38,080 nucleotides of DNA from a virus: the IMG/VR virus record IMGVR_UViG_3300045988_140278; one strand, 5' to 3'. The notes beneath the pieces were generated by a model. That model was not told where the DNA came from. It made no database searches and worked only from the letters and a program-made list of their open reading frames with translations. This document shows positions 1 through 38,080 of this stretch, one piece after another. The translations under genes and the position numbers were made by a program. Within the stretch, counting starts at the first letter, position 1, and every line of letters starts with the position of its first letter.

Positions 1-55
1 ACATTCATCGCGTAGGGGCCAGTAAACGATACAGACGATTGGGTTAGCGAATCCC
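1..55. repeat. Left copy of a perfect 55-bp inverted repeat; the partner is the last 55 nt of the window (38026-38080)
   Basis: The reverse complement of 1-55 is identical to 38026-38080. Identity stops exactly at the inner edge (56 versus 38025 do not match). It is truncated by the window edge on the outside, so the repeat may be longer. Confidence 0.97.
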
Positions 56-548
56 ACACGTCCTTCATTGGTTTCAGCACGTTGAAGAGCGGGACGAGGG
101 TACCGACGGTGATGCCGTTGATCGGGATGCGGTAGAGGAGCATGTCGTGGGTGGCGACGCCGTCGAGGATACTGCCGGTGTTGTGGGCCGGATCCGCCGG
201 GGTACCGGTGGTGGGGGTGCCCTTGAGGACCACGATTGAGCAGGTTTCCACGCCGGTGGTGGTGTTCTTCGTGTAGCGAAGCACCGCGAGATCGTTGCGT
301 TTCTGGCCTTGGGTGCCGGATTGCACGGTGGCGGTGGTGGTGCCGGTCAGGTGCACATGGCGGCCGTTCAATACGGCGTCGCCTGATTGGACGGCGATGG
401 TGTTCGCGTTGCTCATGGTGGCCTTGAGCTGATTACCGGTCGTGAGCGCGTAGTCGCCGGGGCCTACGAGACCGGCTTGGAATGCGCCGATGTCGTCGCT
501 GCCGATGTGTGGGGTGCCGGCGAAGCCGGTGATGAGTTCGACTGTCAT
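1..548 (-). CDS. Receptor-binding / tail-fibre protein, constant N-terminal part plus the start of the currently attached C-terminal cassette; partial, runs off the left edge
   Basis: ATG at 548-546 follows AGGAG (557-553). The frame stays open for 182 codons to position 1 (MTVELITGFAGTPHIGSDDIGAFQ...KPMKDVWDSLTQSSVSFTGPYAMN). It is absent from the ORF track because no stop lies inside the window. It is the last gene of the tail module. Confidence 0.8.
   Translation of the reverse strand, partial: MTVELITGFAGTPHIGSDDIGAFQAGLVGPGDYALTTGNQLKATMSNANTIAVQSGDAVLNGRHVHLTGTTTATVQSGTQGQKRNDLAVLRYTKNTTTGVETCSIVVLKGTPTTGTPADPAHNTGSILDGVATHDMLLYRIPINGITVGTLVPLFNVLKPMKDVWDSLTQSSVSFTGPYAMN
41..55 (-). 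other. Shufflon crossover site (GGGATTCGCTAACCC), the copy inside the expressed tail gene
   Basis: The same 15-mer occurs at 37740-37754 and 38026-38040 in the opposite orientation. Here it spans codons W165-D-S-L-T169 of the 548->1 ORF. Confidence 0.8.
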
Positions 549-776: not shown

Positions 777-788
777 GGCCGGGGTCCC

Positions 789-1586: not shown

Positions 1587-1601
1587 GATGGTTTCCTTTC
1601 G

Positions 1602-1793: not shown

Positions 1794-1805
1794 CAGGGTT
1801 CTCCT

Positions 1806-2564: not shown

Positions 2565-2715
2565 CGTGTTCCTCCTTATCTGTGGTTGGTGTTGGGAACA
2601 GGTTGTCGATGTCCGCGTCGGTGGCGTAGACGATGCTCACGTCGCCGATGATCGCGTCCTCGAGGATGATTACCGGCCCCTCGTCGCACGAGCAGCCGTC
2701 CAGTGTGCGGATCAT
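2557..2715 (-). CDS. Small fibre-module protein (52 aa)
   Basis: ATG at 2715-2713 overlaps the TGA of the upstream gene (ATGA). MIRTLDGCSCDEGPVIILEDAIIGDVSIVYATDADIDNLF... Below the ORF-track size cut-off as an independent ORF. Confidence 0.5.
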   Translation of the reverse strand: MIRTLDGCSCDEGPVIILEDAIIGDVSIVYATDADIDNLFPTPTTDKEEHDG

Positions 2716-3098: not shown

Positions 3099-3099
3099 C

Positions 3100-4653
3100 T
3101 CATTTCGTCCTTTCCCACACATATGCGCCCAGCGAAGGGCGCTGCTCCCAGATGCCGCCGAAGTCACTAGCCGGATTGGCTCCGGTGGTGTTCATCACCA
3201 CATAGCCAATCGGCATCACGGGTCCACCTCCGGCCGAGGTGGCGTGCGCGGTGATGACGCCATCATCGTTGACGGTGATGGTGCTGCCGTCCGGTTTGAC
3301 GCCGCCGATTGTGCCGTTGGTGGCGGCTGGAAGCGTGTAGTTCTCCAATCCGTCGAGTTTCTTTTTGTCCGCAGCGCTCATGAGTCCTGATCCGTTGACT
3401 GTGGCCTCCGCTGCCGTGAGGTGCACGGCCTGACCATTTCTGCTCGCGGATAAGGGAAGGGCCGCGGTTATAGCCGCCACGTTCGCCGCCGCTATGGCGT
3501 TGGCTTCGGTGGCTGTCTGCTGCGCCTTGCCGATCTCGGACGAGAAACCGGATGCGAGCGTGTACGCGTCGGTGGCGGTCTTCTCCACCCCGTCGACGCG
3601 GCTCGGAGTCACCACGGCCGAGAACGTGTTGTTCTTCATCGTGATGGTCGTGCCATCCGCGTAATACGTAGCACCGGAACCACCGGATTCCGCCGTGCCG
3701 CTGAGGCTTGTGGTGACGCCGTCCGCGGTGCCGCATTCGTAGTCGACGCTCATGATGCCGTTGTTGACCTTGACGATTTTCTTGGAGATCGGCACGGTAA
3801 TCGTGATGCCGAGCCGGTTGTCTCGGCCGGTGACGGTATCTCCCACATCCATCGAGAGGCTACGGTCGTTGAGAGTGACGCTCACGCCGCCCTGTGTCTG
3901 GAGCTCTTCGAGTTTCTCTTTGGTTTTCTCGTTGAGTTCGTCGGCTTGGGCATTGCTGTAGTCGTAGATGGCTGTGTATTCCGCGAGCCCTGTGAGCGTC
4001 TTGGATTGGCTGACCTTGCCGTTGGAGTCCGCGTACCAGTGGACGACCATGCGTTCATGCAGATCCCCTTGCCCCAAGCCGATGAGGTGGTTCACCGGCT
4101 GCGAGTCGAGCGACGCCTGGAAGACGAGCAGGTCGCTGTCGATGGTGTCGCCGTAATGATCGACTGGTTTGGCGATGGCGTGCACGTGGCCGTCAAGCCA
4201 TGTGAGTCGGAGTTTCGCGTTGTTTGCCGTGAGCATCTTGGTGACGCCCGTATACGCATCCGTGTATCGGTCGAACTGCCAGCCGCCGATGGTCACGGTG
4301 CTTGCATCGGCGGTGAACAAGCTATCGAGGCCGATGCGTTTGAACAACGTGTTGAGGATTGTCGCGGCGTTGCCGCTCACGGTGAGGTAGTCCTTACCCG
4401 CATCGGGCTGGAGGATTCGACGTGAGAGCATGCCATGCCAGGTGGGGCCTTCCACGCTGCCGTCCGTGTTACGGACGGTGACCATGCCGCCATACTCGGT
4501 GCCGTCCATCATGATGAGAGAGCCGGCCGCCGGTTGTGGCAGACAGGTGAGTTTGAAGTCGTTCTCATCGCTGCCGTAGGCCAGGTCGAGCTCGTAGTCG
4601 TCGAGGGATGCGATGGGCTTGCGAGCGCTGTCGGTGATTATGAGGTCAGCCAT
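3100..4653 (-). CDS. Tail-associated protein (Tal; prophage-tail / Gp37-like N-terminus), 517 aa
   Basis: ATG at 4653 with AGGAG 10 nt upstream. The N-terminus MADLIITDSARKPIASLDDYELDLAYGSDENDFKLT is typical of siphovirus Tal proteins. Located directly after Dit. Has the fibre-tip motif at its C-terminus. Confidence 0.75.
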   Translation of the reverse strand: MADLIITDSARKPIASLDDYELDLAYGSDENDFKLTCLPQPAAGSLIMMDGTEYGGMVTVRNTDGSVEGPTWHGMLSRRILQPDAGKDYLTVSGNAATILNTLFKRIGLDSLFTADASTVTIGGWQFDRYTDAYTGVTKMLTANNAKLRLTWLDGHVHAIAKPVDHYGDTIDSDLLVFQASLDSQPVNHLIGLGQGDLHERMVVHWYADSNGKVSQSKTLTGLAEYTAIYDYSNAQADELNEKTKEKLEELQTQGGVSVTLNDRSLSMDVGDTVTGRDNRLGITITVPISKKIVKVNNGIMSVDYECGTADGVTTSLSGTAESGGSGATYYADGTTITMKNNTFSAVVTPSRVDGVEKTATDAYTLASGFSSEIGKAQQTATEANAIAAANVAAITAALPLSASRNGQAVHLTAAEATVNGSGLMSAADKKKLDGLENYTLPAATNGTIGGVKPDGSTITVNDDGVITAHATSAGGGPVMPIGYVVMNTTGANPASDFGGIWEQRPSLGAYVWERTK

Positions 4654-5495
4654 GCTGGGGCGCTCCTTTCCATGATGATGGTCAGGTCCCAGCCGAATCC
4701 GTTCCATTGGACGTTGGTTTCACCGGCTGGTATCGGTTGGAAGATGTAGCGTCCGCCGTCTAGGCCGGTGCCTCGTGTGGCTTTGTCGAAGACGTTGGTA
4801 GTGCCGCCGTTGATGTCGGTCATCGTGATGGTTTTGTGGCCGGTTTGGCTGTCGATGGTGACGTATGCGCCGATTGGGATGGTCATGGTCAGTTCGTATC
4901 GGTTGCCGCCGATGGTGATTGACGGGTTCGTGCAGGGGCCGAAGATGACCATTTTGAACGGCATTGGGGCGCCGGTGGTGTTGATGGCGTTGGCGCCGCG
5001 CGTTGGCGCCTTGTAGTCGTAGGGGTAGTCGTAGGGGTAGTCAAGGTAGAGGCCGGATTGCAGTTCGTCGGGGAGGAAGTGCTGCGTGTCGGCTGGTTTG
5101 CGCCATACGCCGTCGAGGAGCGCTACGGTGAGCGCGTATTTCGCTGGGTTTGGAAGGTCTTGTGATGGTTCGATGCCGGTGATGAGTGCGGCCTGGGCCC
5201 AGCCGTCCACGGTGATGGTTCCGGCTTTGTTCCGGTTTCCCGTGGAGGCTAGGGCCCGTATGTCGGCGTCGAACAGGTTGCTTGCCGTGTCCAGCATCGT
5301 CAGATCCGCGCACTTCGCCTCCAGTTGCACGGTGGAGGCGTTGAGTGCTGCGGAGTCGATGCCGTGCGCGGCGAGTTCCACATCCCATGCGTGGGTGCGC
5401 AGGGATTCGATGCGGTTGACCATGATGCCGTCGGGTGCGATGAGGTCGACCACGCGGTGCTGGGTGGTGCCGCAGGTGTAGGTCATGGTTCTCAT
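4638..5495 (-). CDS. Distal tail protein (Dit), 285 aa
   Basis: ATG at 5495 overlaps the TMP stop (ATGA) and follows AAGGAGGG. It lies between TMP and Tal. The upstream part of the ORF-track entry (to 6101) is Arg/His-rich out-of-frame noise inside TMP. Confidence 0.75.
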   Translation of the reverse strand: MRTMTYTCGTTQHRVVDLIAPDGIMVNRIESLRTHAWDVELAAHGIDSAALNASTVQLEAKCADLTMLDTASNLFDADIRALASTGNRNKAGTITVDGWAQAALITGIEPSQDLPNPAKYALTVALLDGVWRKPADTQHFLPDELQSGLYLDYPYDYPYDYKAPTRGANAINTTGAPMPFKMVIFGPCTNPSITIGGNRYELTMTIPIGAYVTIDSQTGHKTITMTDINGGTTNVFDKATRGTGLDGGRYIFQPIPAGETNVQWNGFGWDLTIIMERSAPAWLTS

Positions 5496-8400
5496 CGGTT
5501 CCCTCCTTGGACTATGCCGAGCTTGCGCTTGCTTTCGCGGATGGTCATGGCCGGCGCGTATTTCGCGATGGTCGGGCCGAGGTCGGCGTGCAGTGACTGC
5601 AGGTCGGAGCGCAGGCCGCGTATCTCGGTGATGAGATCCGCGAGGCTGGCGCCGGATCCGGTGGCGAGCGCCGTTGTTCCGATGGCTGCGGCTGTCGTGT
5701 CGATCTGGCTGTTCGTGGTCATGGCGCCGCTGATGCCGGCCATCACGCCGCGGATGGATTTGGCTGCTTCTGGGCTTGCCTTGTCCATGCCTTCGACGAG
5801 GCCTTCGACGATGGCGCGGCCGCGGTGCGGCGTCCATCCGCTTCCCGAGAAGGGGCCTCGCTTGGCTGGCGAGTGCGGGATGAACGAGCTGATGGTATCC
5901 ATGACGCCTTTGATGGCGCTGCCGGCTTTGCTGATCATGCCGGTGATGCCGTCGATAAGGCCTTGGACGATGGCCTTGCCTGCGCTGAGAAGCAGAGTGC
6001 CTGCTCCGGCGAACACGCCTTTGATGGCGCTGATGACGCCTTGCAGTGCGCTGCCGATGCCGCTTGCCGCGTTGGAGAGGATGCTCTTGAACGCGTTCCA
6101 TGCGCCTTGCCAGTCGCCGTTGATCAGTGAGGTGACCATGCTGATGACGCCGGAGACTACGCCGACGACGGCCTGGATGACGCCGCTGATTCCACTGATC
6201 ACGCCTGACACGTATGGGAGCATCGCCTGCACCGCCGGCAGCAGCGAGCCAGTGATGAATCCGATGATCGCGGATACCACGGTTCCCACCACCGAGACGA
6301 TGCCCTGTATCACCGGCATGAGTTGCTGGAGCAGCGCGACTATGCCTGCCACGGCCTGTTGGATTACCGGGATCAGCTGCTGGATTACCGGGCCGATGGC
6401 GGCTGCCATCTGGCCGATGAAGTCCACGATCTGCTGGATGACGGGCATGAGGGCGGCGAGCACCTGTCCGGATATCTGCGTGATCATGCTGATGATCTGC
6501 GCGGCCAATGGCAGCAATGCCGCTATGGCGTCCGTCAATGGCGGCAGCAGGCTCGTCACGATCTGGCTGATTGCCGGCATGAGGCCGGTGAGTCCGTTGA
6601 TGAGCGGCTCGATGATCGTGGGGATCAGCGGCAGCATCGTCTGGATGATGGAGCCAACAACCGGTATCAACTGGCCGATGGCATCGGTGATGACCGGCAT
6701 GATCTGCTTGAGCATGCCCTGGATGCTTTTCACCAACGCGTCGAACGCAGGCTGTATGCTCGCGATCTCGGCCTTGAACCGGGTGAACAGGGCGGAGGCC
6801 TGTTCTCCGAACGCGTCACGCAGTTTCGGCGTGGTGGCGATGAGCGCGCCGATGGCGGCCACGGCGATGCCGATGGGTCCGCCCAATGCGGCCAGCGGTC
6901 CGCTCAATCCTCCCAGGACCCCGCCAAGCAGCGGAATCTTGGACAGCAGCGGCGCTATGCCTCCGGCCCCGAGCGCCACGAATGAGGCTATCAGCGGGGC
7001 GATGGCGTTCCGCACGGGTTTGAACATGTCACCCAATCCGTTGAACACGCTGCCGATGGCGTTGATCGCGTTCTGGAACGGTTTGGGCAGGAGCGTCACC
7101 AGATCGGAGAACAATGCGGGTATCGCCTTCACGACGCCCTTGGCGATCTGGCCCACTCGGGGCAGGATGTTCTTCAGCGCGGCGGCGATGCTTTCGGCGA
7201 GCTGCTGGCTCAACGCACCCATGTCCGCGTTGCTGTTGCCGAGGCCGGCGAGCCAGTTCTGCCATGCGGCCTTCATCGAGTCCACGGATCCCTCGATGGT
7301 GGTCGCTGCCTCCCTGGCGGTGGTGCCGCTGATGCCCATCTCCTTCTGGACTCGGCTGATGGCCTCGACCACGTCGGAGAATGAATCGATGCTCAGGTCG
7401 TTGCCGTCCTTGAGCACGCCGGGCAGCTTGTTCGCATCCGAGATGAGGCGTTCCATCTCGCTCTTGGTGCCGCCGTAGCCGAGCTTGAGATTGTCGAGCA
7501 TGGCGTAGTTGCCGCGGGCGAGCGACTGGTAGGTCTGCTGGATGCTGCCTATGTCGGTGCCCATCTTGTTGGCGTTGTCCGACATGTCGATGATGGCCTG
7601 GTTGCCCATCTCGGCGGCCTTGGCGGTGTCGCCGCCCAGCGAGCTCACGAGGCTTGCCGCAAAGCTCGTGACCTGGTTCATGTAGTCGTTCGCGCCGATG
7701 CCCGCGGTCTTGTACGCTTCGGACGCGTACTTCTGCACCGTGCCGCTGGCATCCTTGAACAGGGTGTCCACGCCACCGACCGCCTGCTCCCACGTGGCGT
7801 AGGCGGCCAGCGCCTGCTTGCCTGTGGCGAGCACGGTGGCTCCGATGGCGGTGATGCCCGCTCCCACTGCGGCGACCGCTCCGGTGGCGAGGCTCTTGAG
7901 GTGCGAGCCGGCGCTGGAGGCGAGGCTCTTGAATGCGTTGCCCGCGCTGGAGGCGAGGTTGCCGAGCGTGCTGCCGATTGCCCCGGCGGCGGTCTGTGCT
8001 CCGGCTGGGAGTTTGGACCATACGGCTCCGGCGGCGGTGGCGATGTTGCCGAAGTAGTTCTTGGCTACGTTGGCAACAGGCGCGAGTTTCTGTCCTACTT
8101 TTCCGGCGACGTTTCCGATGGCGGAGCCGATCTTGCCTCCGAATGAGCGGATGGGTGCGGTCCAGGTGGTGACCGCGTTTTTGATGACGGAGCCGGTTCT
8201 GCTTCCCCAGTCGCGGATTGGTTGTGTCCAGGCGTTGATTGCCGCGCCGATTGGTTTGGCGATGCTTGACACGGTTGTGGCGATGCTGTTGCCCCAGCCT
8301 TTGAGGGTTTGTTGGGCGGCGCTGATGGCTCCCTTGAGTCCGGTTTGGATTTTCGCGCCGACCTGTACGGCGAAGCCGCTGAGTTTAGCCACTGCCGTGC

Positions 8401-9091
8401 TGGCGAAGCCGCTGATCTTCGTGCCCAACGGTTTCCAGATGGCATCGACGCCGAGCAGGCTGCGCACGAGGAGACCGAATGCCTCGGATGTGTTTTCGAC
8501 TATGCCTTTTGCGCCAAGCAGTGCGGAATCGGAGGTTTTGAGCCCGGACGCGAACGATTTGAATACACCCGTCGTTTTGCTGGTCGTGGTGTTCAACTCG
8601 TTTTCTGTGGCATTAAGCGCCCTTTTCGCCTCCCTGACCCGTTCCGAGGCTTCCTGAGATTTCTCTAGTGCATTGGCTTGACGGAGCTGGGCTTGTTCGA
8701 CCTTGATGGCTGCGGCCTGGGCCTGGGTGCTGTCGGCACCGTATTTCGCGATGGCGGCGTTGAGTTTGTCCTGGGCCGCGGCGACGGCCACGGTGGACTG
8801 CTTGTAGTTGAGAAGGGCGGCGGAGGCTTTGGAGGTGGCTTGCGCCACGTCCTTCTTGAACGGCTTGAGCACGTCGTCGGCGAGCTGCTGGTCTGCGCTG
8901 CCTTTGAATCCGTTCTTGAAGGACGTGCCGAACCGGCTGCCTATCTTCTTGCCGGTTCCGAAGGCCTTGTCGAAGGTTTTCGACCCGGTTTTGCCGGCGT
9001 TCTTCATCTCCTTGTTCACGGCGTTTCTGAAGCCGTTCATCACGGGGAATATGGAGATGTGGCCGGTGCCGACCTCTGCGCCTCCCGCCAT
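5492..9091 (-). CDS. Tape measure protein, 1199 aa
   Basis: Longest ORF. Ala/Gly/Ile/Ser-rich helical repeats. AGGAGG upstream. Lies between the chaperone pair and Dit. Confidence 0.93.
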   Translation of the reverse strand: MAGGAEVGTGHISIFPVMNGFRNAVNKEMKNAGKTGSKTFDKAFGTGKKIGSRFGTSFKNGFKGSADQQLADDVLKPFKKDVAQATSKASAALLNYKQSTVAVAAAQDKLNAAIAKYGADSTQAQAAAIKVEQAQLRQANALEKSQEASERVREAKRALNATENELNTTTSKTTGVFKSFASGLKTSDSALLGAKGIVENTSEAFGLLVRSLLGVDAIWKPLGTKISGFASTAVAKLSGFAVQVGAKIQTGLKGAISAAQQTLKGWGNSIATTVSSIAKPIGAAINAWTQPIRDWGSRTGSVIKNAVTTWTAPIRSFGGKIGSAIGNVAGKVGQKLAPVANVAKNYFGNIATAAGAVWSKLPAGAQTAAGAIGSTLGNLASSAGNAFKSLASSAGSHLKSLATGAVAAVGAGITAIGATVLATGKQALAAYATWEQAVGGVDTLFKDASGTVQKYASEAYKTAGIGANDYMNQVTSFAASLVSSLGGDTAKAAEMGNQAIIDMSDNANKMGTDIGSIQQTYQSLARGNYAMLDNLKLGYGGTKSEMERLISDANKLPGVLKDGNDLSIDSFSDVVEAISRVQKEMGISGTTAREAATTIEGSVDSMKAAWQNWLAGLGNSNADMGALSQQLAESIAAALKNILPRVGQIAKGVVKAIPALFSDLVTLLPKPFQNAINAIGSVFNGLGDMFKPVRNAIAPLIASFVALGAGGIAPLLSKIPLLGGVLGGLSGPLAALGGPIGIAVAAIGALIATTPKLRDAFGEQASALFTRFKAEIASIQPAFDALVKSIQGMLKQIMPVITDAIGQLIPVVGSIIQTMLPLIPTIIEPLINGLTGLMPAISQIVTSLLPPLTDAIAALLPLAAQIISMITQISGQVLAALMPVIQQIVDFIGQMAAAIGPVIQQLIPVIQQAVAGIVALLQQLMPVIQGIVSVVGTVVSAIIGFITGSLLPAVQAMLPYVSGVISGISGVIQAVVGVVSGVISMVTSLINGDWQGAWNAFKSILSNAASGIGSALQGVISAIKGVFAGAGTLLLSAGKAIVQGLIDGITGMISKAGSAIKGVMDTISSFIPHSPAKRGPFSGSGWTPHRGRAIVEGLVEGMDKASPEAAKSIRGVMAGISGAMTTNSQIDTTAAAIGTTALATGSGASLADLITEIRGLRSDLQSLHADLGPTIAKYAPAMTIRESKRKLGIVQGGNR

Positions 9092-9113
9092 CGGAATTCC
9101 TCCTTGCTAGGTG

Positions 9114-9832
9114 TTACATGCTGAATAGGGCGCTCTCGTGGGGCTCGGCGTCGCGGATTTCCGTCGGCGCCGCCGCATCATCCGGATTCCCGCTGTCGTC
9201 ACTTGTGTCCACCAGTCCGTTGGCGCCGATGGCGTGCAGGATGGTGATGTCGGTGGCGGTCATGGGGAACGCGAGCCCCAGGGCGGAAGCTCCCGTGTAT
9301 GTTGACGGGTCGACGCTCATGGCTTCGTGGAGGCTTATCGCGTCCGCGTAGCGCAGTCGTCGGCCGAGGTCGCGTTCCAGGCTCCATCCGGCTTTGGCGA
9401 AGTCGGCGCGGATCTTCACTCCTTCTTTGGAGCTGAGGGTTCTGCAGAATCCTGCGATTTTCCCAATTCGACGCCTTGGGTCTTCATCAGGGTGGCCCCG
9501 TAGTCCTGAAGCAGGTTGAACGCGATCTGTGTCGGCCCGTCTTCGAGCTTCTTCGCCTGTTCCTCGCCGGCGAACTGGGTGAGGATGCGTTTGATCTGTT
9601 CGATGCTTTCGGAATCATCGGCTGCGGATGAGAGGGCCTCGAAATCGTGGATGCTGAGGAACATTGGCAGCTTGTAGATGACTCCGCCGGGGGCGAGCGC
9701 CCAGTATTCGTCGTTCTTGATGATGTGGCGGATCTTCATCCGCGAGGCGATGGCGTCGAGCGCGGATTGTTCGTCGTCGTCTGTCCAGTTTTCGAAGTCT
9801 TCGAGGGTTGGCGTCCATTCGGTTGCGGTCAT
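9114..9832 (-). CDS. Tail assembly chaperone, G-T type fusion made by a -1 programmed frameshift (predicted 239 aa)
   Basis: The -1 frame is open from the slippery site (9464-9458) through to the stop at 9114. It reads ...ELGK/IAGFCRTLSSKEGVKIRADFAKAGW... Confidence 0.65.
9416..9832 (-). CDS. Tail assembly chaperone (G-like), 138 aa
   Basis: Acidic protein immediately downstream of the major tail gene and upstream of TMP. ATG at 9832 with AGGAG upstream. Confidence 0.8.
   Translation of the reverse strand: MTATEWTPTLEDFENWTDDDEQSALDAIASRMKIRHIIKNDEYWALAPGGVIYKLPMFLSIHDFEALSSAADDSESIEQIKRILTQFAGEEQAKKLEDGPTQIAFNLLQDYGATLMKTQGVELGKSQDSAEPSAPKKE
9458..9464 (-). promoter_or_regulatory. Slippery heptamer G GGA AAA for -1 ribosomal frameshifting
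   Basis: In the zero frame it reads TTG GGA AAA TCG, an X XXY YYZ pattern. It lies 14 codons before the G stop. Confidence 0.6.
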
Positions 9833-22540: not shown

Positions 22541-23583
22541 GCGATGGCCTCGAGTCCGTCGACGTGGATGCCGAGTTCGGCGAGTTCGTCCGGTTCCCCG
22601 TAGCAGATCAGGGTCACGATGTCGGTGGGCGCCTTGCCCTGGCCGAGGAGTCTGGCCACGGCCGGAATCCATGCGCGACGGGCTTGGTCGTCGGGTTGGC
22701 GGCATTTGAGCGGCGTGCTGCTGTCCACGAGTTTGCGCGCCCTGCGTTCCAGCTCCGAAGCGGCCGGATCCGAAGCGTCGGTCATGCCGGTGCCGAGTTT
22801 GGCGCCGTTCAGGCCGATTTCCTTGCCGCGGCGCAGCCAGTTGCGGAACGCCGGCGCCGGGTCGGCCGGATACCTGCCGTTGGCGGCGAGCGCGTCGCGG
22901 AATTTGGCGAGCTCGTAGTCGAGGTCGAGTCCGAACGCGTCGGCGAACGCGATGTGCGACTGGTCGGGCTGGAAATCGACGAGCGTCTGGCGTGGATCCG
23001 TGGCCGGCGTCGTCTTCGGCTTGGTCTTCGGTTTTGGGTTGGTTTTCGGTTTTTTCGCGCGCGTACTCTCTCTTGACGGTTCTATTGACGGTTCCTTTGA
23101 CGGTTTGGGTGAAGCCTGTTTCACCCCTAAAGCGAAGTGGGTTTCACCCGTGGGGTGAAGTGGGTTTCGCCCGTGGGGTGAAGCCTGTTTCACCTGTGGG
23201 GTGAAGCCTGTTTCACCGGTGAAACTGGTTTCGGGGGTGAAGTCTGTTTCACCCCTGTTTTCCGCGTCCTGTCGCGGTTCTTCGGGTTTTTCGGTTTTGT
23301 TTTTCTTGGGGAAGAGCTTGTAGACGACGGGTCGGCGTCCTTTGGCGTATTTGCCGACGAGTTTCTGGTCGCCCTTGCGGATCAGTCCCTTTGCCTCGAG
23401 TTTTCTGAGGAGAAGTTGGATGCTGCGTTCGGATTTCTCGACCTCTTGGGCCATGGTGGCGACGCTTGGCCAGGCCATGCCGTCGTCGTTGGCGTAGTCG
23501 GCGAGGACGATGAGGAGGAGTTTGGCGGTGCTGTCGCCGTGGAGTTTTGTTTTCTTGGCGCGTGCGACGAGTTCGATGCTCAT
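22537..23583 (-). CDS. Replication initiator-like protein with N-terminal winged-HTH, 348 aa
   Basis: ATG at 23583 overlaps the upstream stop. ...LLLIVLADYANDDGMAWPSVATMAQEVEKSERSIQLLLRKLEAKGLI... is typical of phage replication/DnaD-like HTH proteins. The central linker is encoded by the iteron array. Confidence 0.7.
   Translation of the reverse strand: MSIELVARAKKTKLHGDSTAKLLLIVLADYANDDGMAWPSVATMAQEVEKSERSIQLLLRKLEAKGLIRKGDQKLVGKYAKGRRPVVYKLFPKKNKTEKPEEPRQDAENRGETDFTPETSFTGETGFTPQVKQASPHGRNPLHPTGETHFALGVKQASPKPSKEPSIEPSRESTRAKKPKTNPKPKTKPKTTPATDPRQTLVDFQPDQSHIAFADAFGLDLDYELAKFRDALAANGRYPADPAPAFRNWLRRGKEIGLNGAKLGTGMTDASDPAASELERRARKLVDSSTPLKCRQPDDQARRAWIPAVARLLGQGKAPTDIVTLICYGEPDELAELGIHVDGLEAIA
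23107..23255. repeat. Array of ~7 iterons (GGTGAAG-N3-GTTTCACC, each an inverted repeat; ~23-bp period); putative ori
   Basis: Units start near 23107, 23132, 23152, 23175, 23198, 23218 and 23233. Units 23175-23194 and 23198-23217 are identical. The array lies inside the initiator gene. Confidence 0.7.
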
Positions 23584-33443: not shown

Positions 33444-33494
33444 AAAGCCCCCCGACACTCATTGTGAGCGCCGGGGGCTTTCGTTTGTTTCGTT
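33444..33494. terminator. Bidirectional intrinsic terminator between the plus-strand operon and the integrase gene
   Basis: AAAGCCCCC (33444-33452) pairs with GGGGGCTTT (33473-33481), followed by CGTTTGTTTCGTTT. An A-run precedes it, serving the opposite strand. Confidence 0.7.
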
Positions 33495-34771
33495 TATGAG
33501 GCTTCCTCAATGACCTCGGCTTCGATGATGTCGGCGTCGTCGTGGAGGTCGGGTATGGCCTGACCGAGGAGTTTGGCGAGGCTGGCTTCGTCTCTGTGGG
33601 TGTAGTGGTTGGTCATCGTGATGCTGGTGTGGCCCATGATGGCGGTGCGTGCGTCGTCGGGCATGTTGGCGCGGGCCGTCATGCTGGCGGTCCAGTGGCG
33701 TGCGCTGTGGATGGTGACCGGTGGAAGGCCCGCGGCCTTCAGAGCCTTGTTCCAGTTGTAGCGTTCGGTGCTGCTGCGTATCGGGTTGCCGCGCGAGTTG
33801 GTGAATATGAGCTGGCGCGGGCCGATGCCGAGTCGTTTGACGCGCGCCCACAATCGCTGCCACAGGCTCGTGGATATGGGCACGAACCGGTGCGCGGCGC
33901 GGGTCTTGGGCGTGGTGAGCCACAGGATGCCGTACAGGTGCTCGGCTTTGAGCCAGGCGGGTATGACGGCTTGTTCCGGCCTGCCGTATTGCTGGATCTG
34001 CTGCTGTACGTTGATGCCGGGCACGCCGTCGCGTTGTTCGAGCTCGTAGGGCATGAGCGCGTAGCGTTCGCCTTCCCTCATGCCGGCCGCGAACGCGAGT
34101 TCGAACAGCAGCATCCAGGATTCATCGACGTCCACGGTCAGGGCCGGTCCGCGTCGTTTCGCTCCCCGGTTGGGCACGGCCTCGATCAGCTGCTTCGGCT
34201 GGTCTGGCGAGAGGATCCTGGTCTCGGTGGGCTCCACCCTTGGCGGCTTGACCCTGCGGCACGGATCCACGGGGATGAGCTCCTCGAGCTCGGCCTGGTC
34301 GAGCATCATCTTCAGGCTCACGAAATGGTCCTTGAGCGTGGAGGGCGCGAGCCGTTTGGAAAGCACGCGCATGCATTGGCGGATATGGTCAGGGGTCAGC
34401 TCGGTGAGGCGGATACAGCCGATGACCTCCATGCACGCATGGATCCTGCCGGCGCGGGTGCGGTACGTGGTGGGCTTGACGTTGAGCCGGTATTCCTCCA
34501 GCCACCGCTCCGCGTAATCCTTCAGGTACGGGCTCTTGGCGCCGGGCAGCAGGCCGGTGCGTTCCATCTCGGCGACCTTCGCGTCGAACCGTTCGCGGGC
34601 ATCGGCCTTCGTCCGGCCGGTCGCCGCTATGAACCGCCGCTTGCCGGTCGCGGGGTCCCGGCTGATCTCGCGGCGGAACTCCCATCGTCCATCCGCGCGG
34701 TGGATGATGCTGCCCGCGCCCTTCGTGCGCCGCGACCGTCCGCCCGTCTTCCGTGAGGTCTTCGCCGTCAT
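33494..34771 (-). CDS. int: Tyrosine integrase, 425 aa
   Basis: Arm-binding-type N-terminus (GSIIHRADGRWEFRREI...), SAM-like core, and a catalytic region ...MREGERYAL...IHSARHWTAS...MGHTSITMTNHYTH. ATG at 34771 with AGGAGA upstream. Confidence 0.9.
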   Translation of the reverse strand: MTAKTSRKTGGRSRRTKGAGSIIHRADGRWEFRREISRDPATGKRRFIAATGRTKADARERFDAKVAEMERTGLLPGAKSPYLKDYAERWLEEYRLNVKPTTYRTRAGRIHACMEVIGCIRLTELTPDHIRQCMRVLSKRLAPSTLKDHFVSLKMMLDQAELEELIPVDPCRRVKPPRVEPTETRILSPDQPKQLIEAVPNRGAKRRGPALTVDVDESWMLLFELAFAAGMREGERYALMPYELEQRDGVPGINVQQQIQQYGRPEQAVIPAWLKAEHLYGILWLTTPKTRAAHRFVPISTSLWQRLWARVKRLGIGPRQLIFTNSRGNPIRSSTERYNWNKALKAAGLPPVTIHSARHWTASMTARANMPDDARTAIMGHTSITMTNHYTHRDEASLAKLLGQAIPDLHDDADIIEAEVIEEAS

Positions 34772-34859
34772 GGTGTTCTCCTTGTGTCCGAGAGCACTCA
34801 ATGAGCGTCCACGCACATGGCGAGAACCGTTGCGGCGAGTGTCCTCCGGTGTTTCCGAA

Positions 34860-35115
34860 GTGCACTCTATTTACACTCTATCGCCGCGTAAAACGGCGGA
34901 ATACGTGCGTAAAACGGCGGTTTTCCGTAAATCGAAAAACGGCGTGATTCCAACGTTCCGACACTCCGGACCCCTTGGAATCACGCCGTTTTGCAGGGTC
35001 TAAAGACCCTACTTGGAAACATTGAACCTGAATGTGTTCGTATTTTTCGTTTCCCTGTGTTTTCAAGGGTTTCAGCGTCTCGCCTTTTGTGCGTACACAC
35101 TATTGACACTCTATT
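34860..35115. other. Putative attP (un-recombined): arm-type repeats flanking an 18-bp inverted repeat
   Basis: (A/G)CAC(T/A)CTAT occurs at 34862, 34873, 35095 and 35106, as pairs 11 bp apart. GTAAAACGGCGG occurs at 34888 and 34909. The perfect 18-bp inverted repeat AAAACGGCGTGATTCCAA (34936-34953) pairs with 34975-34992. Non-coding and lower GC. Lies between int and the lysis cassette. Confidence 0.55.
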
Positions 35116-35145
35116 TTCTTGTGTTGATTCAATTGTATACAAGAA

Positions 35146-35209
35146 AACGCCCCGCCCGGCAAGCAGAGCGGCTCATGTAGAGCCGTCTGCGATGCCTGAG
35201 CGGGGCGTT
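35146..35209 (-). terminator. Structured terminator after the lysis cassette
   Basis: AACGCCCCGC (35146-35155) pairs with GCGGGGCGTT (35200-35209) around a nested hairpin. On the minus strand it is followed by TTTTCTTGT. Confidence 0.5.
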
Positions 35210-35215
35210 CGGTTT

Positions 35216-35317
35216 TCAGGGCATGCCTTGGTCGTCGGCGAGCGCCGCATACAGTTCGAGTGCGAGTACGGCTGCGATCAGGCCCGCGCATTCGACGAGC
35301 CATTGGATGCGGTTCAT
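35216..35317 (-). CDS. 33-aa hydrophobic peptide coupled to the endolysin gene
   Basis: ATG at 35317 overlaps the lysin stop (ATGA). MNRIQWLVECAGLIAAVLALELYAALADDQGMP. Confidence 0.4.
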   Translation of the reverse strand: MNRIQWLVECAGLIAAVLALELYAALADDQGMP

Positions 35318-36027
35318 ACGCCGAGCTGTTCCATGGTCTTGCGCACGAGCGCGTCGATCTGGTCGAAGCGGCTCCACCATGGGGCGCCGTTGTTGCCGTG
35401 GATCAATGGCACGCCTGCCTGCTGGAGCAGGTTGGCCTGGTCGGGGTGTGTGAGCGCGGTGCGCCCCTTGCCGGGCTCGCAGTACCAGATGACTCCCGTG
35501 GAGTCGTTGCGGATCATCATTGCCGCCATGATATCTACCTCCTGTGTTCCGGTGTTGCCGGATAGCTTCTGTTGGACGAGTTGGACGAAGGCTCCCCAGT
35601 TGTAGCCGAAGCGCGTGAAGTACGGGATGGGGTCCGTATGGTCGGATCCGCCGTAGGTCTGGCTGAACCATTGGTGCGGGTGCATGCGGTCGACGCCCCA
35701 CCAGTGCGCGCGGAGGCGCTGGGCTATCACGTCGGCTGCGATGTCGATGCCGCGCCAGAAGTCCGACGCGTTGGTGGCCTCGCAGATCTCGATGCCCTCG
35801 CACGTGCCGTTGCCGTTGCCGACCTGCCAGCACAGCCGGTCGTAGGGCACGCAATGAATCGCCTCGGTCCAGTCGGACGTGAGGTGCACCGCGTAGTCGT
35901 AGCCTCGCGACCACAGGTCCCGGTGGTTGCGGGCCGTGGCGCCGGGATTCGCCGTGCTGTGGACGGCGAACAGGGACGGATTGAGGTAGCCGTGCCCTGC
36001 GTTGACGATCTCCTCCTTGATCTGCAC
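35314..36027 (-). CDS. Endolysin, N-acetylmuramoyl-L-alanine amidase (Amidase_2/PGRP-like) with C-terminal binding domain, 237 aa
   Basis: ...AVHSTANPGATARNHRDLW...AVHLTSDW...CWQVGNGNGTCEGIEICE... GTG start at 36027. Follows the holin. Confidence 0.85.
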   Translation of the reverse strand: MQIKEEIVNAGHGYLNPSLFAVHSTANPGATARNHRDLWSRGYDYAVHLTSDWTEAIHCVPYDRLCWQVGNGNGTCEGIEICEATNASDFWRGIDIAADVIAQRLRAHWWGVDRMHPHQWFSQTYGGSDHTDPIPYFTRFGYNWGAFVQLVQQKLSGNTGTQEVDIMAAMMIRNDSTGVIWYCEPGKGRTALTHPDQANLLQQAGVPLIHGNNGAPWWSRFDQIDALVRKTMEQLGV

Positions 36028-36033
36028 TATTAG

Positions 36034-36423
36034 TCACTCCGTGGTGGTCTTGGCGTCCGGGTCGGAGATCATCTCGCTCATGGGCACGACCTCGCCCGGC
36101 ATATCCACCGCATTGCCAGTGGACTGGGCGAGCTTGACGGCGTTGACGACCTGCTGGCCCTGCACGGCCGCGGAGGTCACGTTGTTGTTGCGCCACCACG
36201 CGTACACGGATGCGATGACGGCGATGACGCCGGTGATCGCCGTGCTCACCTGGTCCGAGGTGAACGGCAGCTGGCTGATGCCAGCGATGGACAGGCCGGT
36301 CTGGACGACGCTGAACAGCTGGACGAGCAGCAGCACGATGGATTTCGTGCGCTCCACGGTCAGACCTGGAATCGTGGTGGTGTTGGCGGCCTTGTGGTCG
36401 GCCACGCCTTTGGTGTTTGCCAT
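36034..36423 (-). CDS. Holin, 129 aa
   Basis: Two TM segments (SIVLLLVQLFSVVQTGLSIAGI and AITGVIAVIASVYAWW) and a charged C-terminus. Immediately upstream of the amidase. Confidence 0.8.
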   Translation of the reverse strand: MANTKGVADHKAANTTTIPGLTVERTKSIVLLLVQLFSVVQTGLSIAGISQLPFTSDQVSTAITGVIAVIASVYAWWRNNNVTSAAVQGQQVVNAVKLAQSTGNAVDMPGEVVPMSEMISDPDAKTTTE

Positions 36424-36435
36424 TGGTGTTCCTTT

Positions 36436-36792
36436 CTATTGGTGGTGGTTTCCTCCGCGCCGGAGGTCGTTGACCTCGTGGCGCAGTTCGATGAGGTTCT
36501 GCTCGGTAGTGGTGATGCGACGATTGACGGTCGCGAACTCGCCGTTCATGTCGTCACGCAGACCGTCGACCGCGCCGCGCAATGATTCGATGGCGTCCAA
36601 TGTGCGCAGGGCCTTGTCGTCGAGGTCGTCGCGCAACGGCATCTCATGGTTGTTCGTTATCTCGCCGCGCGTCGCCCGATCCCTCTCGTCCCCTCTGTGG
36701 TTGATCCAGATGGCGGTGACGATCTGGGCGGCGAGCACCAGGGCGCTCACCACGATGTACGCCCATGCGGGCAATCCCTCGGGCAGGTTCAT
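36436..36792 (-). CDS. N-terminal TM plus coiled-coil protein, 118 aa (lysis-cassette associated)
   Basis: ATG with AGGAG 6 nt upstream. AWAYIVVSALVLAAQIVTAIWI TM segment. Confidence 0.7.
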   Translation of the reverse strand: MNLPEGLPAWAYIVVSALVLAAQIVTAIWINHRGDERDRATRGEITNNHEMPLRDDLDDKALRTLDAIESLRGAVDGLRDDMNGEFATVNRRITTTEQNLIELRHEVNDLRRGGNHHQ

Positions 36793-36812
36793 GCACGGCT
36801 CCTACGGTATGG

Positions 36813-36862
36813 AAAACCCACACGCAGATCCGCATGGAACGGCCATGCTGCGTGTGGGTTTT
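36813..36862. terminator. 15-bp perfect-stem hairpin with T-tracts on both strands, between the lysis cassette and the recombinase gene
   Basis: AAAACCCACACGCAG (36813-36827) pairs with CTGCGTGTGGGTTTT (36848-36862) around a 20-nt loop. Confidence 0.55.
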
Positions 36863-36873
36863 GGAGGTATGAA

Positions 36874-37737
36874 ATGTTGCTGAATGAGTATTGGGACGAG
36901 TCGTATTGGCCGTCATGTGGCAGGCTGCGCGAATGCACGCGCGTCGGATATGCGAGTGCATGGCGACGTCACATACGACCCGAATTGGGTGACATGGACC
37001 TGGCTGACCTGACAGGGCCGCGTATCCAATCGTGGCTGGACTCGATCACGTCGGCCGGAGCGGCGCGTAAGGCGTGGGCCGTATTGCGGCAGATGCTGCG
37101 TTCGGCGGTGCGGCTCGGATTACTGGATGCGGACGTGACCGGCAGGGTCACGCCACCGAAACCGAGCGGTTATGAACCGGAGGTTTTGGATATCCGCCAG
37201 ATACGCCAGTTGCTGCAGGGTTTCCACGGGCATGAGCTCGAGGCATGGCTGATCTGCAGCGTATGCCTCGGATTGCGCACCGAAGAAGCCCTCGGATTGG
37301 AATGGCAGGATCTGAACCTCAACACCGGCAAGGTCAGGGTCCAGCGCGGCCTGCAATGGGTGGACGGGCACGAGGTAATCGTAGATCCAAAAACCGAGTT
37401 GAGCCGTCGCACCATCGTGCTGCCGCGATTCGCGGTACTTCGACTCCGTGAAATCAGGCCACGAGACGGTGGCCGACTCATCGGCTCGTTGAATCCCGGC
37501 CAGGTCGCTCGTCGCTACGCCACATGGTGCAGATCGCAGAACCTGCCGTATGTGCCGAGACGGAACCTGCGCCATAGCTGGGCGTCCACCGCGTTAGGCG
37601 CCGGCGTAGATGTGGCGGTGGTCAGTCGAGCACTCGGCCACTCCAGCATCGCTACAACAGCCCGCTACTACCTGCGCCCAGACAGTGAAGTACTCCGCGA
37701 AGCGCAACGCACATGGGAGCACGCCCTCATACGTTGA
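36874..37737 (+). CDS. Small tyrosine recombinase (shufflon invertase, Rin/Rci-like role), 287 aa
   Basis: GGAGG 6 nt upstream of the ATG at 36874. No arm-binding N-domain. ...CLGLRTEEALGL..., NLRHSWASTAL, LGHSSIATTARYY (R...H-x-x-R...Y). Its stop lies 2 nt before a crossover site. The ORF-track start at 36646 is an upstream extension. Confidence 0.85.
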   Translation: MLLNEYWDESYWPSCGRLRECTRVGYASAWRRHIRPELGDMDLADLTGPRIQSWLDSITSAGAARKAWAVLRQMLRSAVRLGLLDADVTGRVTPPKPSGYEPEVLDIRQIRQLLQGFHGHELEAWLICSVCLGLRTEEALGLEWQDLNLNTGKVRVQRGLQWVDGHEVIVDPKTELSRRTIVLPRFAVLRLREIRPRDGGRLIGSLNPGQVARRYATWCRSQNLPYVPRRNLRHSWASTALGAGVDVAVVSRALGHSSIATTARYYLRPDSEVLREAQRTWEHALIR

Positions 37738-37739
37738 TA

Positions 37740-37754
37740 GGGATTCGCTAACCC
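37740..37754 (+). other. Shufflon crossover site, copy 2
   Basis: GGGATTCGCTAACCC. With its 4 preceding nt, GATAGGGATTCGCTAACCC is shared with copy 3. Confidence 0.8.
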
Positions 37755-38026
37755 CGCTGCATCTCTACACTGGCAGTGGCGTCTATAAGGATGCCGGTAG
37801 CGGCGGCTACGCGACCCTGTGGACGTTCGGCCAGTTCAAAACCCAGTTCGGCCGCGACTGGAACAATGACGTGGTCGTTGCCGCCATCAACGGTGACTGG
37901 GACGCGAACGGCCGTCAGGTCACCTCTGTGCGTGTCAGCCCGTCCGGAAACCGCATCGATGTCATGTTCGACGGTAAAAACACGGCACCTATCCGCGTCA
38001 ACTGGGCCGTCATGTGGCGCGGATAG
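37741..38026 (+). other. Promoterless alternative C-terminal cassette for the receptor-binding protein (DSLT + 90 aa)
   Basis: It is in phase with the site, as in the expressed gene: DSLTPLHLYTGSGVYKDAGSGGYATLWTFGQFKTQFGRDWNNDVVVAAINGDWDANGRQVTSVRVSPSGNRIDVMFDGKNTAPIRVNWAVMWRG, stop at 38024-38026. No RBS or start at the site. The upstream part of ORF-track entry 37610-38026 overlaps the recombinase gene out of frame. Confidence 0.75.
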
Positions 38027-38080
38027 GGATTCGCTAACCCAATCGTCTGTATCGTTTACTGGCCCCTACGCGATGAATGT
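38026..38080 (+). repeat. Crossover site copy 3 (38026-38040) plus the first 40 nt of a further cassette; right copy of the 55-bp terminal inverted repeat
   Basis: Exact reverse complement of 1-55. Reads DSLTQSSVSFTGPYAMN in the cassette phase. Confidence 0.95.

What the first reader, a model, noticed from the sequence alone, without database searches (positions are those of the whole stretch)
36874..38080. Tyrosine-recombinase shufflon that swaps the C-terminus of the tail receptor-binding protein
GGGATTCGCTAACCC occurs three times: on the plus strand at 37740-37754 and 38026-38040, and inverted at 41-55. The inverted copy lies in frame (W165-D-S-L-T169) in the last tail gene (548->1). Each plus-strand copy is immediately preceded by a stop (TGA then TAG at 37735-37740; TAG at 38024-38026). 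Each is followed by an open frame with no RBS or start codon that is in exactly the same phase relative to the site. Site-specific inversion would therefore fuse residues 1-169 of the tail protein either to the current tail (QSSVSFTGPYAMN...) or to a different 90-aa domain (PLHLYTGSGVYKDAGSGGYATLW...NWAVMWRG), giving a 259-aa isoform. A 287-aa tyrosine recombinase lacking an arm-binding domain ends 2 nt before the first site. This is the logic of the R64 Rci/pilV shufflon. Mu Gin and P1 Cin use the same logic with serine invertases. To my recollection a comparable Rin shufflon has been described in Bifidobacterium prophages, so the class is probably not new. The site sequence, cassette set and architecture in this genome still define a host-range switch worth documenting.
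Basis: partly seen in the sequence, partly recalled or inferred. Interest (0 to 1): 0.85.

Follow-up and report, generated by a model that had tools for sequence, protein, structure and literature searches.

The report
Known Rin shufflon in Bifidobacterium phage

Summary
GGGATTCGCTAACCC lies at 41-55(-), 37740-54(+) and 38026-40(+), in frame as W165-D-S-L-T in the tail gene, with a 287-aa armless tyrosine recombinase ending 2 nt before the first site. Two of the three copies are not independent: window 1-55 is the exact reverse complement of 38026-38080. This 55-nt terminal inverted duplication starts exactly at the site and is most likely an assembly footprint.

Public assemblies carrying the identical recombinase show complete modules with up to four cassettes (P, Y, H, Q) in several inversion states. 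Two genomes are 100.000% identical over about 20 kb of flanks and differ only inside the module. One metagenome contig has exactly the P>Q> state at the window's right end, and others have the Rc-Q state at its left end. The predicted 259-aa Rc-P isoform is identical to an annotated gene in an isolate genome. One conserved N-terminus is joined at the same residue to at least 16 unrelated C-termini. The Q domain model matches the TP901-1 and p2 receptor-binding head domains.

This matches the Rin shufflon of Bifidobacterium prophages (Mavrich et al. 2018) in architecture, host and lengths, and in 10 of 11 site bases. Verdict: interpretation supported, already known, low interest.

The parts
56..548 (-). 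Rc: constant N-terminal part (codons 1-164) of the receptor-binding tail protein gene; start ATG 548-546 with AGGAG upstream
   Evidence: Translation. At least 90% identical N-terminus in 120 of 120 top homologs, joined to at least 16 different C-termini. PHROG 9994 and others, no named function.
41..55 (-). Crossover site (rix-like) inside the RBP gene, read as W165-D-S-L-T169
   Evidence: The junction between the conserved and variable parts lies at this motif in 114 of 115 homologs.
1..40 (-). First 13 codons of cassette Q (QSSVSFTGPYAMN), currently fused to Rc; cut by the contig end
   Evidence: The full 100-aa Q cassette is seen in L005 and P0001.
36874..37737 (+). rin: 287-aa armless tyrosine recombinase (invertase)
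   Evidence: Pfam PF00589 and PF14659. Closest solved structures are XerA and XerD. R135, K173, R233, H256 and Y265 are conserved in 11 homologs. It is separate from the 440-aa integrase at 33494-34816.
37740..37754 (+). Crossover site 1, 2 nt after the rin stop codon
   Evidence: the same position in every related locus.
37755..38026 (+). Silent cassette P (PLHLY...NWAVMWRG, 90 codons plus TAG)
   Evidence: Found fused to Rc in L007, L023, L043, L054, L048 and P0036.
38026..38040 (+). Crossover site 2 (its first G is the last base of the P stop codon)
38041..38080 (+). Start of cassette Q in silent position after P; the same 40 nt as 1-40 reverse-complemented
   Evidence: The P-site-Q junction is present in the independent contig L058.
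1..55 (.). Left arm of the 55-nt terminal inverted duplication (partner 38026-38080); an assembly footprint of two inversion states
   Evidence: The left end matches the L005 state and the right end the L058 state.

Best explanation
**What it is.** The window is an almost complete, circularly closed genome (about 38.9 kb) of a temperate Bifidobacterium longum siphophage. It carries a Rin-type shufflon between its tail genes and its lysis genes.

**The parts.**
- The RBP gene has a constant part, Rc (169 codons), that ends in a short asymmetric site, (GGGA)TTCGCTAACCC.
- The same site precedes each of several promoterless cassettes of 85-107 codons (P, Y, H and Q in this lineage).
- Each cassette encodes an alternative receptor-binding head domain.

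**How it works.** The adjacent armless tyrosine recombinase Rin recombines the site in Rc with any inverted copy. This flips the DNA between them and puts a different cassette in frame behind Rc. Flips between other inverted pairs reorder the silent cassettes. One phage can therefore make RBPs with different receptor specificity.

**Why the contig ends here.** The sample held at least two states, Rc-Q and P>Q>...Rc-Y. The assembler stopped at both ends in the first 55 nt shared by the two junctions, which left a false inverted terminal repeat and dropped about 850 nt of interior.

**Shown:** the sites, the frames, the cassettes, the alternative junctions in nature, recent inversion in clonal genomes, and the RBP-head fold of Q.

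**Inferred:** that Rin is the catalyst, where within the site the strands are cut, that switching changes host range, and that the two junctions arose by switching within one population.
For: **Sites and frames.**

**The published system (PMC6109161).** It describes an Rc of 168 residues, Rv cassettes of 95-100 residues, an armless tyrosine invertase next to the cassettes, an 11-bp rix site TTCCCTAACCC, B. breve and B. longum prophage hosts, and inversion variants seen in reads.

**Complete modules with the identical Rin protein.**
- P>Y>H<Q< in L005 and L026.
- Q>Y>H<P< in L043 and L054.
- Q>H>Y<P< in L023.
- P>Y>H< in L003, Y>H<P< in L007, H>Y< in L004, and Y>H< in many loci.

**Recent inversion.**
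- L003 and L007 have 0 mismatches over 10,882 + 9,122 nt of flanks, and their shufflon segments are 100% identical but rearranged.
- L004 and L009 carry a 606-nt segment inverted at 100% identity.

**The window's two ends.**
- L058 is rin|P>Q>H>Y<|Rc, 99.7% identical to both window ends. It differs from L005 by one inversion bounded by two sites.
- The window matches the CP043002.1 prophage (L003) at 99.96% and 99.87%, and it is contiguous across the prophage end.

**Protein evidence.**
- At least 16 unrelated C-terminal families are joined to Rc at W165DSLT.
- The predicted Rc-P protein is identical to the L007 gene.
- The Q domain model has pLDDT around 90. It superposes on the TP901-1 RBP head (2f0c, rmsd 2.1 A over 105 columns; 4ios, TM 0.81) and the p2 RBP head (2bse, TM 0.76).

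**Host and context.**
- Host names are B. longum and B. breve.
- A separate 440-aa integrase, Dit, a minor tail protein, holin and endolysin confirm the phage context.
Against: - There are no reads for this sample, so in-sample switching is inferred from the contig ends only. Two co-resident lineages in different states would give the same contig.
- Rin catalysis has never been shown biochemically, here or in the literature I could read.
- The His-II position of the tyrosine-recombinase signature is not His in this family. It is R, K or Q at position 230.
- The site differs at one base from the published 11-mer.
- The Y cassette is frameshifted in 16 of 21 loci, so part of the repertoire may be decaying.
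- The fold of the P cassette could not be modelled (pLDDT 33).
- That 55 is a common de Bruijn k-mer size is my own knowledge. The assembler used for this contig is unknown.
Confidence: 0.92

Rival explanations
1. The two contig-end junctions (Rc-site-Q and P-site-Q) come from two co-resident phage or prophage lineages fixed in different arrangements, not from switching within one population in this sample. The module is still a Rin shufflon, but the window itself gives no evidence of current activity.
For: Different arrangements are fixed in different public assemblies. Metagenomes often hold several B. longum strains. No reads are available.
Against: Clonal genomes with 0 mismatches in 20 kb of flanks differ only in the module, so switching is fast compared with point mutation. 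Mixed states within single cultures are reported for the published Rin phages.
Confidence: 0.2
2. The 55-nt terminal inverted repeat is a real physical end of a linear phage genome, and the three sites are part of terminal repeats rather than recombination sites.
For: Tools that flag inverted terminal repeats would read a 55-nt exact one as a sign of a complete linear genome.
Against: The repeat starts exactly at the recombination site. Contigs L005, L058, L003 and others run straight through both 'ends' and join them via 0.6-1.2 kb of cassettes. The repeat lies inside a coding frame.
Confidence: 0.02
3. The arrangement differences arise from general homologous recombination or modular exchange between phages, and the adjacent recombinase is a second integrase or Xer-like resolvase unrelated to them.
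For: Rin is annotated 'integrase' in the two closest phage records and hits only Xer and integron-integrase models below their cut-offs. Phage tail genes are mosaic.
Against: Every breakpoint falls in the same 11-15 nt site, which is too short for RecA-type recombination. Segments are inverted with no loss or gain of bases. The recombinase-site-cassette layout is conserved down to 52-60% Rin identity, with co-varying sites: TTCCGTAACCC in PMBT6 and ctl617. A separate full-length integrase is present.
Confidence: 0.04
4. The module is a fossil: it once switched but is now inactive and decaying.
For: The Y cassette is out of frame in most loci through a poly-A length change. Cassette number has dropped to two in many prophages.
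Against: The Rin protein is conserved at 100% across many assemblies, and its exact sequence is on record in 4816 assembly blocks. P, Q and H are intact in every locus examined. Identical genomes occur in different states.
Confidence: 0.04

Closest known systems
Rin shufflon of dnaJ2-integrated Bifidobacterium breve and B. longum prophages Bb423phi1, Bl157phi1 and Bl30698phi1 (Mavrich et al. 2018, PMC6109161)
   Same: - The order rin, Rv cassettes, Rc, tail genes.
- An armless tyrosine invertase distinct from the phage integrase.
- A constant N-terminus of 168 residues there and 169 here, with variable C-termini of about 90-107 residues.
- A short asymmetric site in frame in Rc and before each cassette.
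- A TP901-1-like head fold, the same host genus and species, and inversion variants among close relatives.
   Different: - The site core here is TTCGCTAACCC, against the printed TTCCCTAACCC (10 of 11). Every Bifidobacterium locus I retrieved with Rc at 90% or more, including a 5-cassette B. breve locus (L057), has the G version. I could not fetch the published strains to see whether this is real variation.
- The window lacks the published dnaJ2 att core and sits on a backbone with another integration module.
- The cassette set P/Y/H/Q could not be compared with the published Rv1-5.
Rin shufflon reported in Eggerthella lenta clade 1 prophages (PMC8778435), and the unremarked homologous modules in Bifidobacterium phage PMBT6 (MK932884) and Siphoviridae sp. 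ctl617 (OY725605)
   Same: The same layout. The Rin homologs of PMBT6 and ctl617 are 52-58% identical to the window's. Repeated sites precede the cassettes, and Rc homologs are 45-48% identical.
   Different: A different site core (TTCCGTAACCC, read as S-V-T instead of S-L-T), different cassettes and different hosts. In the PMBT6 record all three full sites face the same way.
R64/IncI1 plasmid shufflon (Rci tyrosine recombinase, sfx sites, PilV adhesin C-termini); from established knowledge
   Same: A tyrosine recombinase without an arm-binding domain. Multiple short asymmetric sites. Multiple inversions select one of several C-terminal segments behind a constant N-terminus of a surface recognition protein.
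   Different: The target is a type IV pilus adhesin of a conjugative plasmid, not a phage RBP. The sfx sites are 19 bp and unrelated in sequence. No detectable specific relationship of Rin to Rci was tested or found. This is an analog, not the same family.
Serine-invertase tail-fibre switches: Gin (Mu), Cin (P1), Min (p15B); from established knowledge
   Same: A phage-encoded site-specific inversion that exchanges the C-terminal part of the host-recognition tail protein. Min also has multiple segments.
   Different: Those systems use serine recombinases with an enhancer and Fis. Here the enzyme is a tyrosine recombinase (Pfam PF00589).

Membership tests
Rin shufflon (Mavrich et al. 2018) | Tyrosine recombinase with core-binding and catalytic domains but no arm-binding domain, next to the cassette array and distinct from the phage integrase | tested here: met
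   287 aa with PF14659 and PF00589 only. Aligns over its full length with XerA and XerD. A separate 440-aa integrase lies at 33494-34816.
Rin shufflon (Mavrich et al. 2018) | Constant RBP N-terminal gene (Rc, about 168 codons) ending in an in-frame crossover site | tested here: met
   169 codons up to the end of the site-encoded WDSLT. The junction position is fixed in 114 of 115 homologs.
Rin shufflon (Mavrich et al. 2018) | Short asymmetric repeat before every variable cassette, rare elsewhere in the genome | tested here: met
   3 of 3 copies in the window are at cassette starts, against 0.36 expected by chance. 103 sites in 50 unique contexts share an invariant TTCGCTAACCC.
Rin shufflon (Mavrich et al. 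2018) | Site sequence identical to the published rix TTCCCTAACCC | tested here: not met
   The window and all close relatives have TTCGCTAACCC, a 10 of 11 match. TTCCCTAACC was seen only in a Collinsella MAG fragment (L017). The published strains could not be retrieved to check.
Rin shufflon (Mavrich et al. 2018) | Several mutually dissimilar promoterless Rv cassettes of about 90-100 codons with an RBP head (TP901-1-like) fold | tested here: met
   P, Y, H and Q are unrelated in sequence. The Q model matches the TP901-1 and p2 heads. The fold of P was not obtained.
Rin shufflon (Mavrich et al. 2018) | Inversions bounded by the sites among closely related genomes | tested here: met
   L003 vs L007, L004 vs L009 and L005 vs L058. 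Arrangement table.
Rin shufflon (Mavrich et al. 2018) | Sequence homology of Rin and Rc to the proteins of Bb423phi1, Bl157phi1 and Bl30698phi1 | not testable with these tools
   CP021556, AP010890 and CP011965 could not be fetched. Indirect evidence: a B. breve 5-cassette locus (L057) has Rin 94% and Rc 98% identical to the window's.
Rin shufflon (Mavrich et al. 2018) | Residence on a dnaJ2-integrating prophage (a property of the described phages, not of the switch) | tested here: not met
   The published att core is absent from the window at up to 3 mismatches. Relatives L004, L006 and L008-L012 do sit beside dnaJ.
R64-type Rci/sfx shufflon | Rci recombinase acting on 19-bp sfx sites to vary the PilV pilus adhesin on a conjugative plasmid | tested here: not met
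   The target is a phage tail protein between Dit/minor tail genes and the lysis genes. The site is an 11-15 nt sequence of a different kind. Only superfamily-level similarity (PF00589) was found.
Gin/Cin/Min/Hin serine invertase switches | Serine recombinase (resolvase/invertase domain) | tested here: not met
   Pfam and NCBIfam give only tyrosine-recombinase families.

The most novel reading that the evidence does not exclude
The switch may have a second layer. Cassette Y, which lies in the interior missing from this window, carries a poly-A tract found as A6, A7, A8 or A9. Only A8 is in frame. The length varies between segments whose other 554 nt are 100% identical. In one assembled state (L058) the out-of-frame Y sits in the expression site, predicting an RBP without a head domain. 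If the tract slips at a useful rate, the phage would combine inversion (which head) with slipped-strand on/off control of one head. That combination is not described for the Rin system. Homopolymer sequencing error, or simple decay of one cassette, is the more likely reading.
Probability: 0.12. Interest if true: 0.5.

Novelty: already known. Interest (0 to 1): 0.22.

Why it matters
For biology, this adds little beyond the 2018 description. It confirms that Rin-type RBP switching is common in B. longum and B. breve phages. It also shows a wider repertoire than first reported: at least 16 head families behind one Rc. And it shows that clonal genomes differ only in the state of the switch.

The practical value is technical.
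- A contig with an exact inverted terminal repeat of k-mer length can be a circular phage genome broken inside an invertible module. Such a repeat should not be taken as a sign of a complete linear genome.
- Gene callers label Rin as 'integrase' and the silent cassettes as small hypothetical genes.

The public assemblies also offer a large natural data set for one open question: how an armless tyrosine invertase favours inversion over deletion. Cassette numbers of 2 to 7 suggest that deletions do occur.

Tried and rejected
- **blastn against phage records.** Searching the module against 50,697 phage records found nothing. Only the protein-level search found relatives.
- **PDB sequence search.** The full Rc-Q protein gave no meaningful hit. 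The fold had to be reached through a model.
- **AlphaFold model of Rc-P.** It failed (pLDDT 33 from six near-identical sequences) and was not used. The N-terminal Rc part of the Rc-Q model is also poor (pLDDT below 50), so I make no claim about the Rc fold.
- **EndoU_bacteria hit for cassette P.** It is weak (E 8.6e-4, 20.1 bits against a cut-off of 25.3) and was rejected as sub-threshold and out of context.
- **Species-representative genomes.** The search returned only relatives in B. imperatoris, B. saguini, B. pullorum and a Collinsella MAG, not the host. The host came from protein names and one paper.
- **Published Rin prophages.** Attempts to reach them through protein look-ups returned other strains. 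The paper's supplement does not print the site.
- **Integration site.** Searches for the published dnaJ2 att core and for tRNA genes in the window were negative, so the integration site of this backbone remains unidentified.
- **The 15-mer as an imperfect palindrome.** I considered GGGATT/TAACCC arms. Only 4 of 6 arm positions pair, so no firm half-site model can be drawn from sequence alone.
Full report
**1. The observation**

The 15-mer GGGATTCGCTAACCC occurs exactly three times, at 41-55(-), 37740-37754(+) and 38026-38040(+). Its 11-nt core TTCGCTAACCC, allowing one mismatch, gives the same three hits. Shuffled sequence expects 0.36, and none of 100 shuffles reached three.

The minus-strand ORF starting at 548 reads MTVEL...KDVW165DSLT169QSSVSFTGPYAMN and runs off the contig. 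ORF 36874-37737 encodes a 287-aa protein that stops 2 nt before the first plus-strand site.

Three points need correcting.

- Window 1-55 is the exact reverse complement of 38026-38080. The match ends precisely at the outer edge of the site, because base 56 and base 38025 do not pair. The 'third cassette' is therefore the same 40 nt as the present tail end, and the window holds only one truly silent cassette.
- The TGA and TAG at 37735-37740 are both in the recombinase frame. In the cassette frame the ORF stays open back to GTG 37685 / ATG 37610, inside rin. This is why gene callers annotate a 113-aa 'gene' there.
- On the contig as drawn, the inverted sites are 37.7 kb apart. The short invertible arc is the piece missing between the two contig ends.

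**2. What it is**

*Gene context.* The context is that of a temperate siphophage.
- Upstream of the RBP gene on the minus strand lie a tape measure protein (1199 aa), Dit, a minor tail protein and several small tail genes.
- On the other side of the recombinase lie holin and endolysin.
- A separate 440-aa integrase lies at 33494-34816.
- The 287-aa protein has only the SAM-like core-binding and catalytic domains of tyrosine recombinases.
- Its nearest solved relatives are XerA and XerD. It reaches no curated NCBIfam cut-off.
- R135, K173, R233, H256 and Y265 are conserved in eleven homologs. The His-II position (230) is R, K or Q, not His.

*Complete modules elsewhere.* The exact 287-aa protein is on record in 4816 blocks of public assemblies, including complete chromosomes. 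One of these, CP197406, is B. longum subsp. longum HOM1190. Homologs of the tail protein are named B. longum, B. breve or B. bifidum.

In these fully assembled loci the module is complete. I name each cassette by its first residues: P (PLHLY), Y (PIRSG), H (PTVLW) and Q (QSSVS). I write rin on the left and Rc on the right. The arrangements found are:
- P>Y>H<Q< in L005 and L026
- Q>Y>H<P< in L043 and L054
- Q>H>Y<P< in L023
- P>Y>H< in L003 and L033
- Y>H<P< in L007
- Q>Y>H< in L029 and L047
- Y>H<Q< in L052 and L053
- Y>H< in many loci
- H>Y< in L004

All four cassettes are thus found fused to Rc somewhere.

It differs at three residues from P0036, a cluster of 103 member sequences.

*Inversion is recent.*
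- L003 and L007 come from two isolate assemblies. They have zero mismatches over 10,882 and 9,122 nt of flanking DNA and differ only in the order and orientation of segments bounded by the sites.
- L004 and L009 differ by a 606-nt segment inverted at 100% identity.

The switch therefore turns over faster than point mutations accumulate.

*Breadth of the repertoire.* Among the top 120 homologs of Rc, the N-terminus is at least 90% identical, and W165DSLT sits at the same position in 114 of 115. Downstream of it there are at least 16 unrelated C-terminal families, giving proteins of 254-290 aa.

*The site.* A logo built from 50 unique site contexts gives G82 G98 G82 A72, then an invariant TTCGCTAACCC, then A or C.

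*Fold of the variable domain.* An AlphaFold model of Rc-Q is confident only for the variable domain (residues 170-269, pLDDT around 90). That domain superposes on receptor-binding head domains of lactococcal phages:
- TP901-1 ORF49: 2f0c, rmsd 2.1 A over 105 columns; 4ios, TM 0.81.
- p2 RBP head: 2bse, TM 0.76.

The crossover site falls at the end of a predicted helix (154-168), just before this domain. This fits a neck-to-head joint, but the helix lies in the low-confidence part of the model.

**3. Why the contig ends as it does**

The window matches the CP043002.1 prophage (L003) at 99.96% over 41-9161 and 99.87% over 35009-38040. It continues past the prophage end at 35009 into the integrase gene. 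It is therefore the excised, circular form of the phage, broken only inside the shufflon.

- The left end (Rc-site-Q) is the junction of the L005 state.
- The right end (P-site-Q) cannot coexist with it unless Q is duplicated, and no assembled locus has two Q copies.
- One inversion of the L005 order, between its second and fourth sites, predicts rin|P>Q>H>Y<|Rc.
- A search of metagenome contigs for the P-site-Q junction found exactly that state in ODUP01005606.1 (L058). L058 is 99.7% identical to both window ends, and its central 920 nt are inverted relative to L005.

The 55-nt terminal inverted repeat is thus the stretch (site plus the first 40 nt of Q) shared by two junctions present in the sample. 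That 55 is a common assembler k-mer size is my own knowledge, and the assembler used here is unknown. About 850 nt of interior are missing, which gives a circle of about 38,890 nt. At least one other IMG/VR contig has its shufflon split over both ends in the same way (L027/L028).

**4. Mechanism**

*Shown.*
- A constant gene segment ends in a short asymmetric site.
- The same site stands in the same phase before each cassette.
- Cassettes lie in both orientations.
- Natural variants are related by inversions whose breakpoints fall within the site.
- A conserved tyrosine recombinase is always adjacent, down to 52-60% identity. Its site co-varies: TTCCGTAACCC in PMBT6 and ctl617.

*Inferred.*
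- Rin catalyses the exchange.
- The invariant core holds the overlap region.
- Asymmetry of the core sets orientation, so inverted pairs invert.
- Different heads bind different receptors.

Cassette numbers from 2 to 7 suggest that deletions between direct sites occur occasionally. For example, L003 equals the L005 order without Q.

**5. Comparison with what is known**

Mavrich et al. [quoted passage not shown] They report:
- rin, Rv cassettes and Rc in the same order;
- a 168-residue constant part and 95-100-residue variable parts;
- an armless tyrosine invertase distinct from the integrase;
- an 11-bp rix site;
- HHpred similarity of the heads to the TP901-1 RBP;
- inversion variants in prophage and virion reads.

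A later paper reports a Rin shufflon in Eggerthella lenta prophages (PMC8778435). Only three papers in the library mention the term.

The differences here are small.
- The core is TTCGCTAACCC rather than the printed TTCCCTAACCC. Every Bifidobacterium locus I could read has the G version, including a five-cassette B. breve locus (L057).
- This backbone lacks the published dnaJ2 att core.

I could not retrieve the published strains, so direct protein identity to their Rin and Rc is untested.

The R64 Rci/PilV shufflon is a functional analog with a tyrosine recombinase but a different target and different sites. Gin, Cin and Min are analogs that use serine invertases.

**6. Verdict**

The system is already known, in the same host species, and its components are abundant in public data. 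Interest is low.

The most novel reading left open is a second, slipped-strand layer in cassette Y, whose poly-A tract ranges from A6 to A9 and varies between otherwise identical segments. That cassette lies outside this window, and sequencing error or decay is the more likely explanation.

Noticed in passing
window 23107-23256: Five or six tandem 23-nt units GGGTGAAGCCTGTTTCACCCnT, each with an internal inverted repeat (GGGTGAA...TTTCACCC). This looks like an iteron or operator array (families D2/D4).
   Followed up: no
window 1118-1252: Three in-frame 45-nt tandem repeats inside the 265-aa tail gene 789-1586(-). The corresponding gene in related prophages has a weak collagen-repeat hit.
   Followed up: no
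window 34936-35009: Homology to the integrated prophage in CP043002.1 (L003) stops at 35009, next to a perfect 18-nt inverted repeat (34936-34953 / 34975-34992) and the 440-aa integrase gene (33494-34816, minus strand). This is probably the attP region. The window runs across it, so the contig is the excised, circular form.
   Followed up: partly
whole window; L004, L006, L008-L012: The published dnaJ2 attachment core is absent from the window, yet many prophages with the identical Rin protein sit right beside dnaJ. The Rin module therefore travels on mosaic backbones with different integration and lysis modules: the window matches L004 and L009 only over 41-611 and 36134-37755.
   Followed up: partly
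L003-L012, L023, L026, L029, L033, L040-L043, L047, L052-L054, L058 (Y cassette, just after its site): A poly-A tract in cassette Y occurs as A6 (2 loci), A7 (13), A8 (5) and A9 (1), and only A8 is in frame. The length varies within groups whose other 554 nt are 100% identical. In L058 the out-of-frame Y is in the expression site, giving Rc plus 46 aa.
   Followed up: partly
L002 (Bifidobacterium phage PMBT6, MK932884) 5335-6374; L001 (Siphoviridae sp. ctl617, OY725605) 2955-5292: Both deposited phage genomes carry a homologous Rin module with site core TTCCGTAACCC. PMBT6 has 3 full sites and ctl617 has 7. Both are annotated only as 'integrase' plus hypothetical proteins.
   Followed up: partly
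Rin residue 230 (window 37561-37563): The position equivalent to the conserved His-II of tyrosine recombinases (H-x-x-R) is R, K or Q in eleven Rin homologs. R135, K173, R233, H256 and Y265 are conserved.
   Followed up: partly
L027/L028 (IMGVR_UViG_2791355245_000007, 36,007 nt): Another viral contig whose shufflon is split over both contig ends, like the window. Assembly breaks at this module seem to recur.
   Followed up: no
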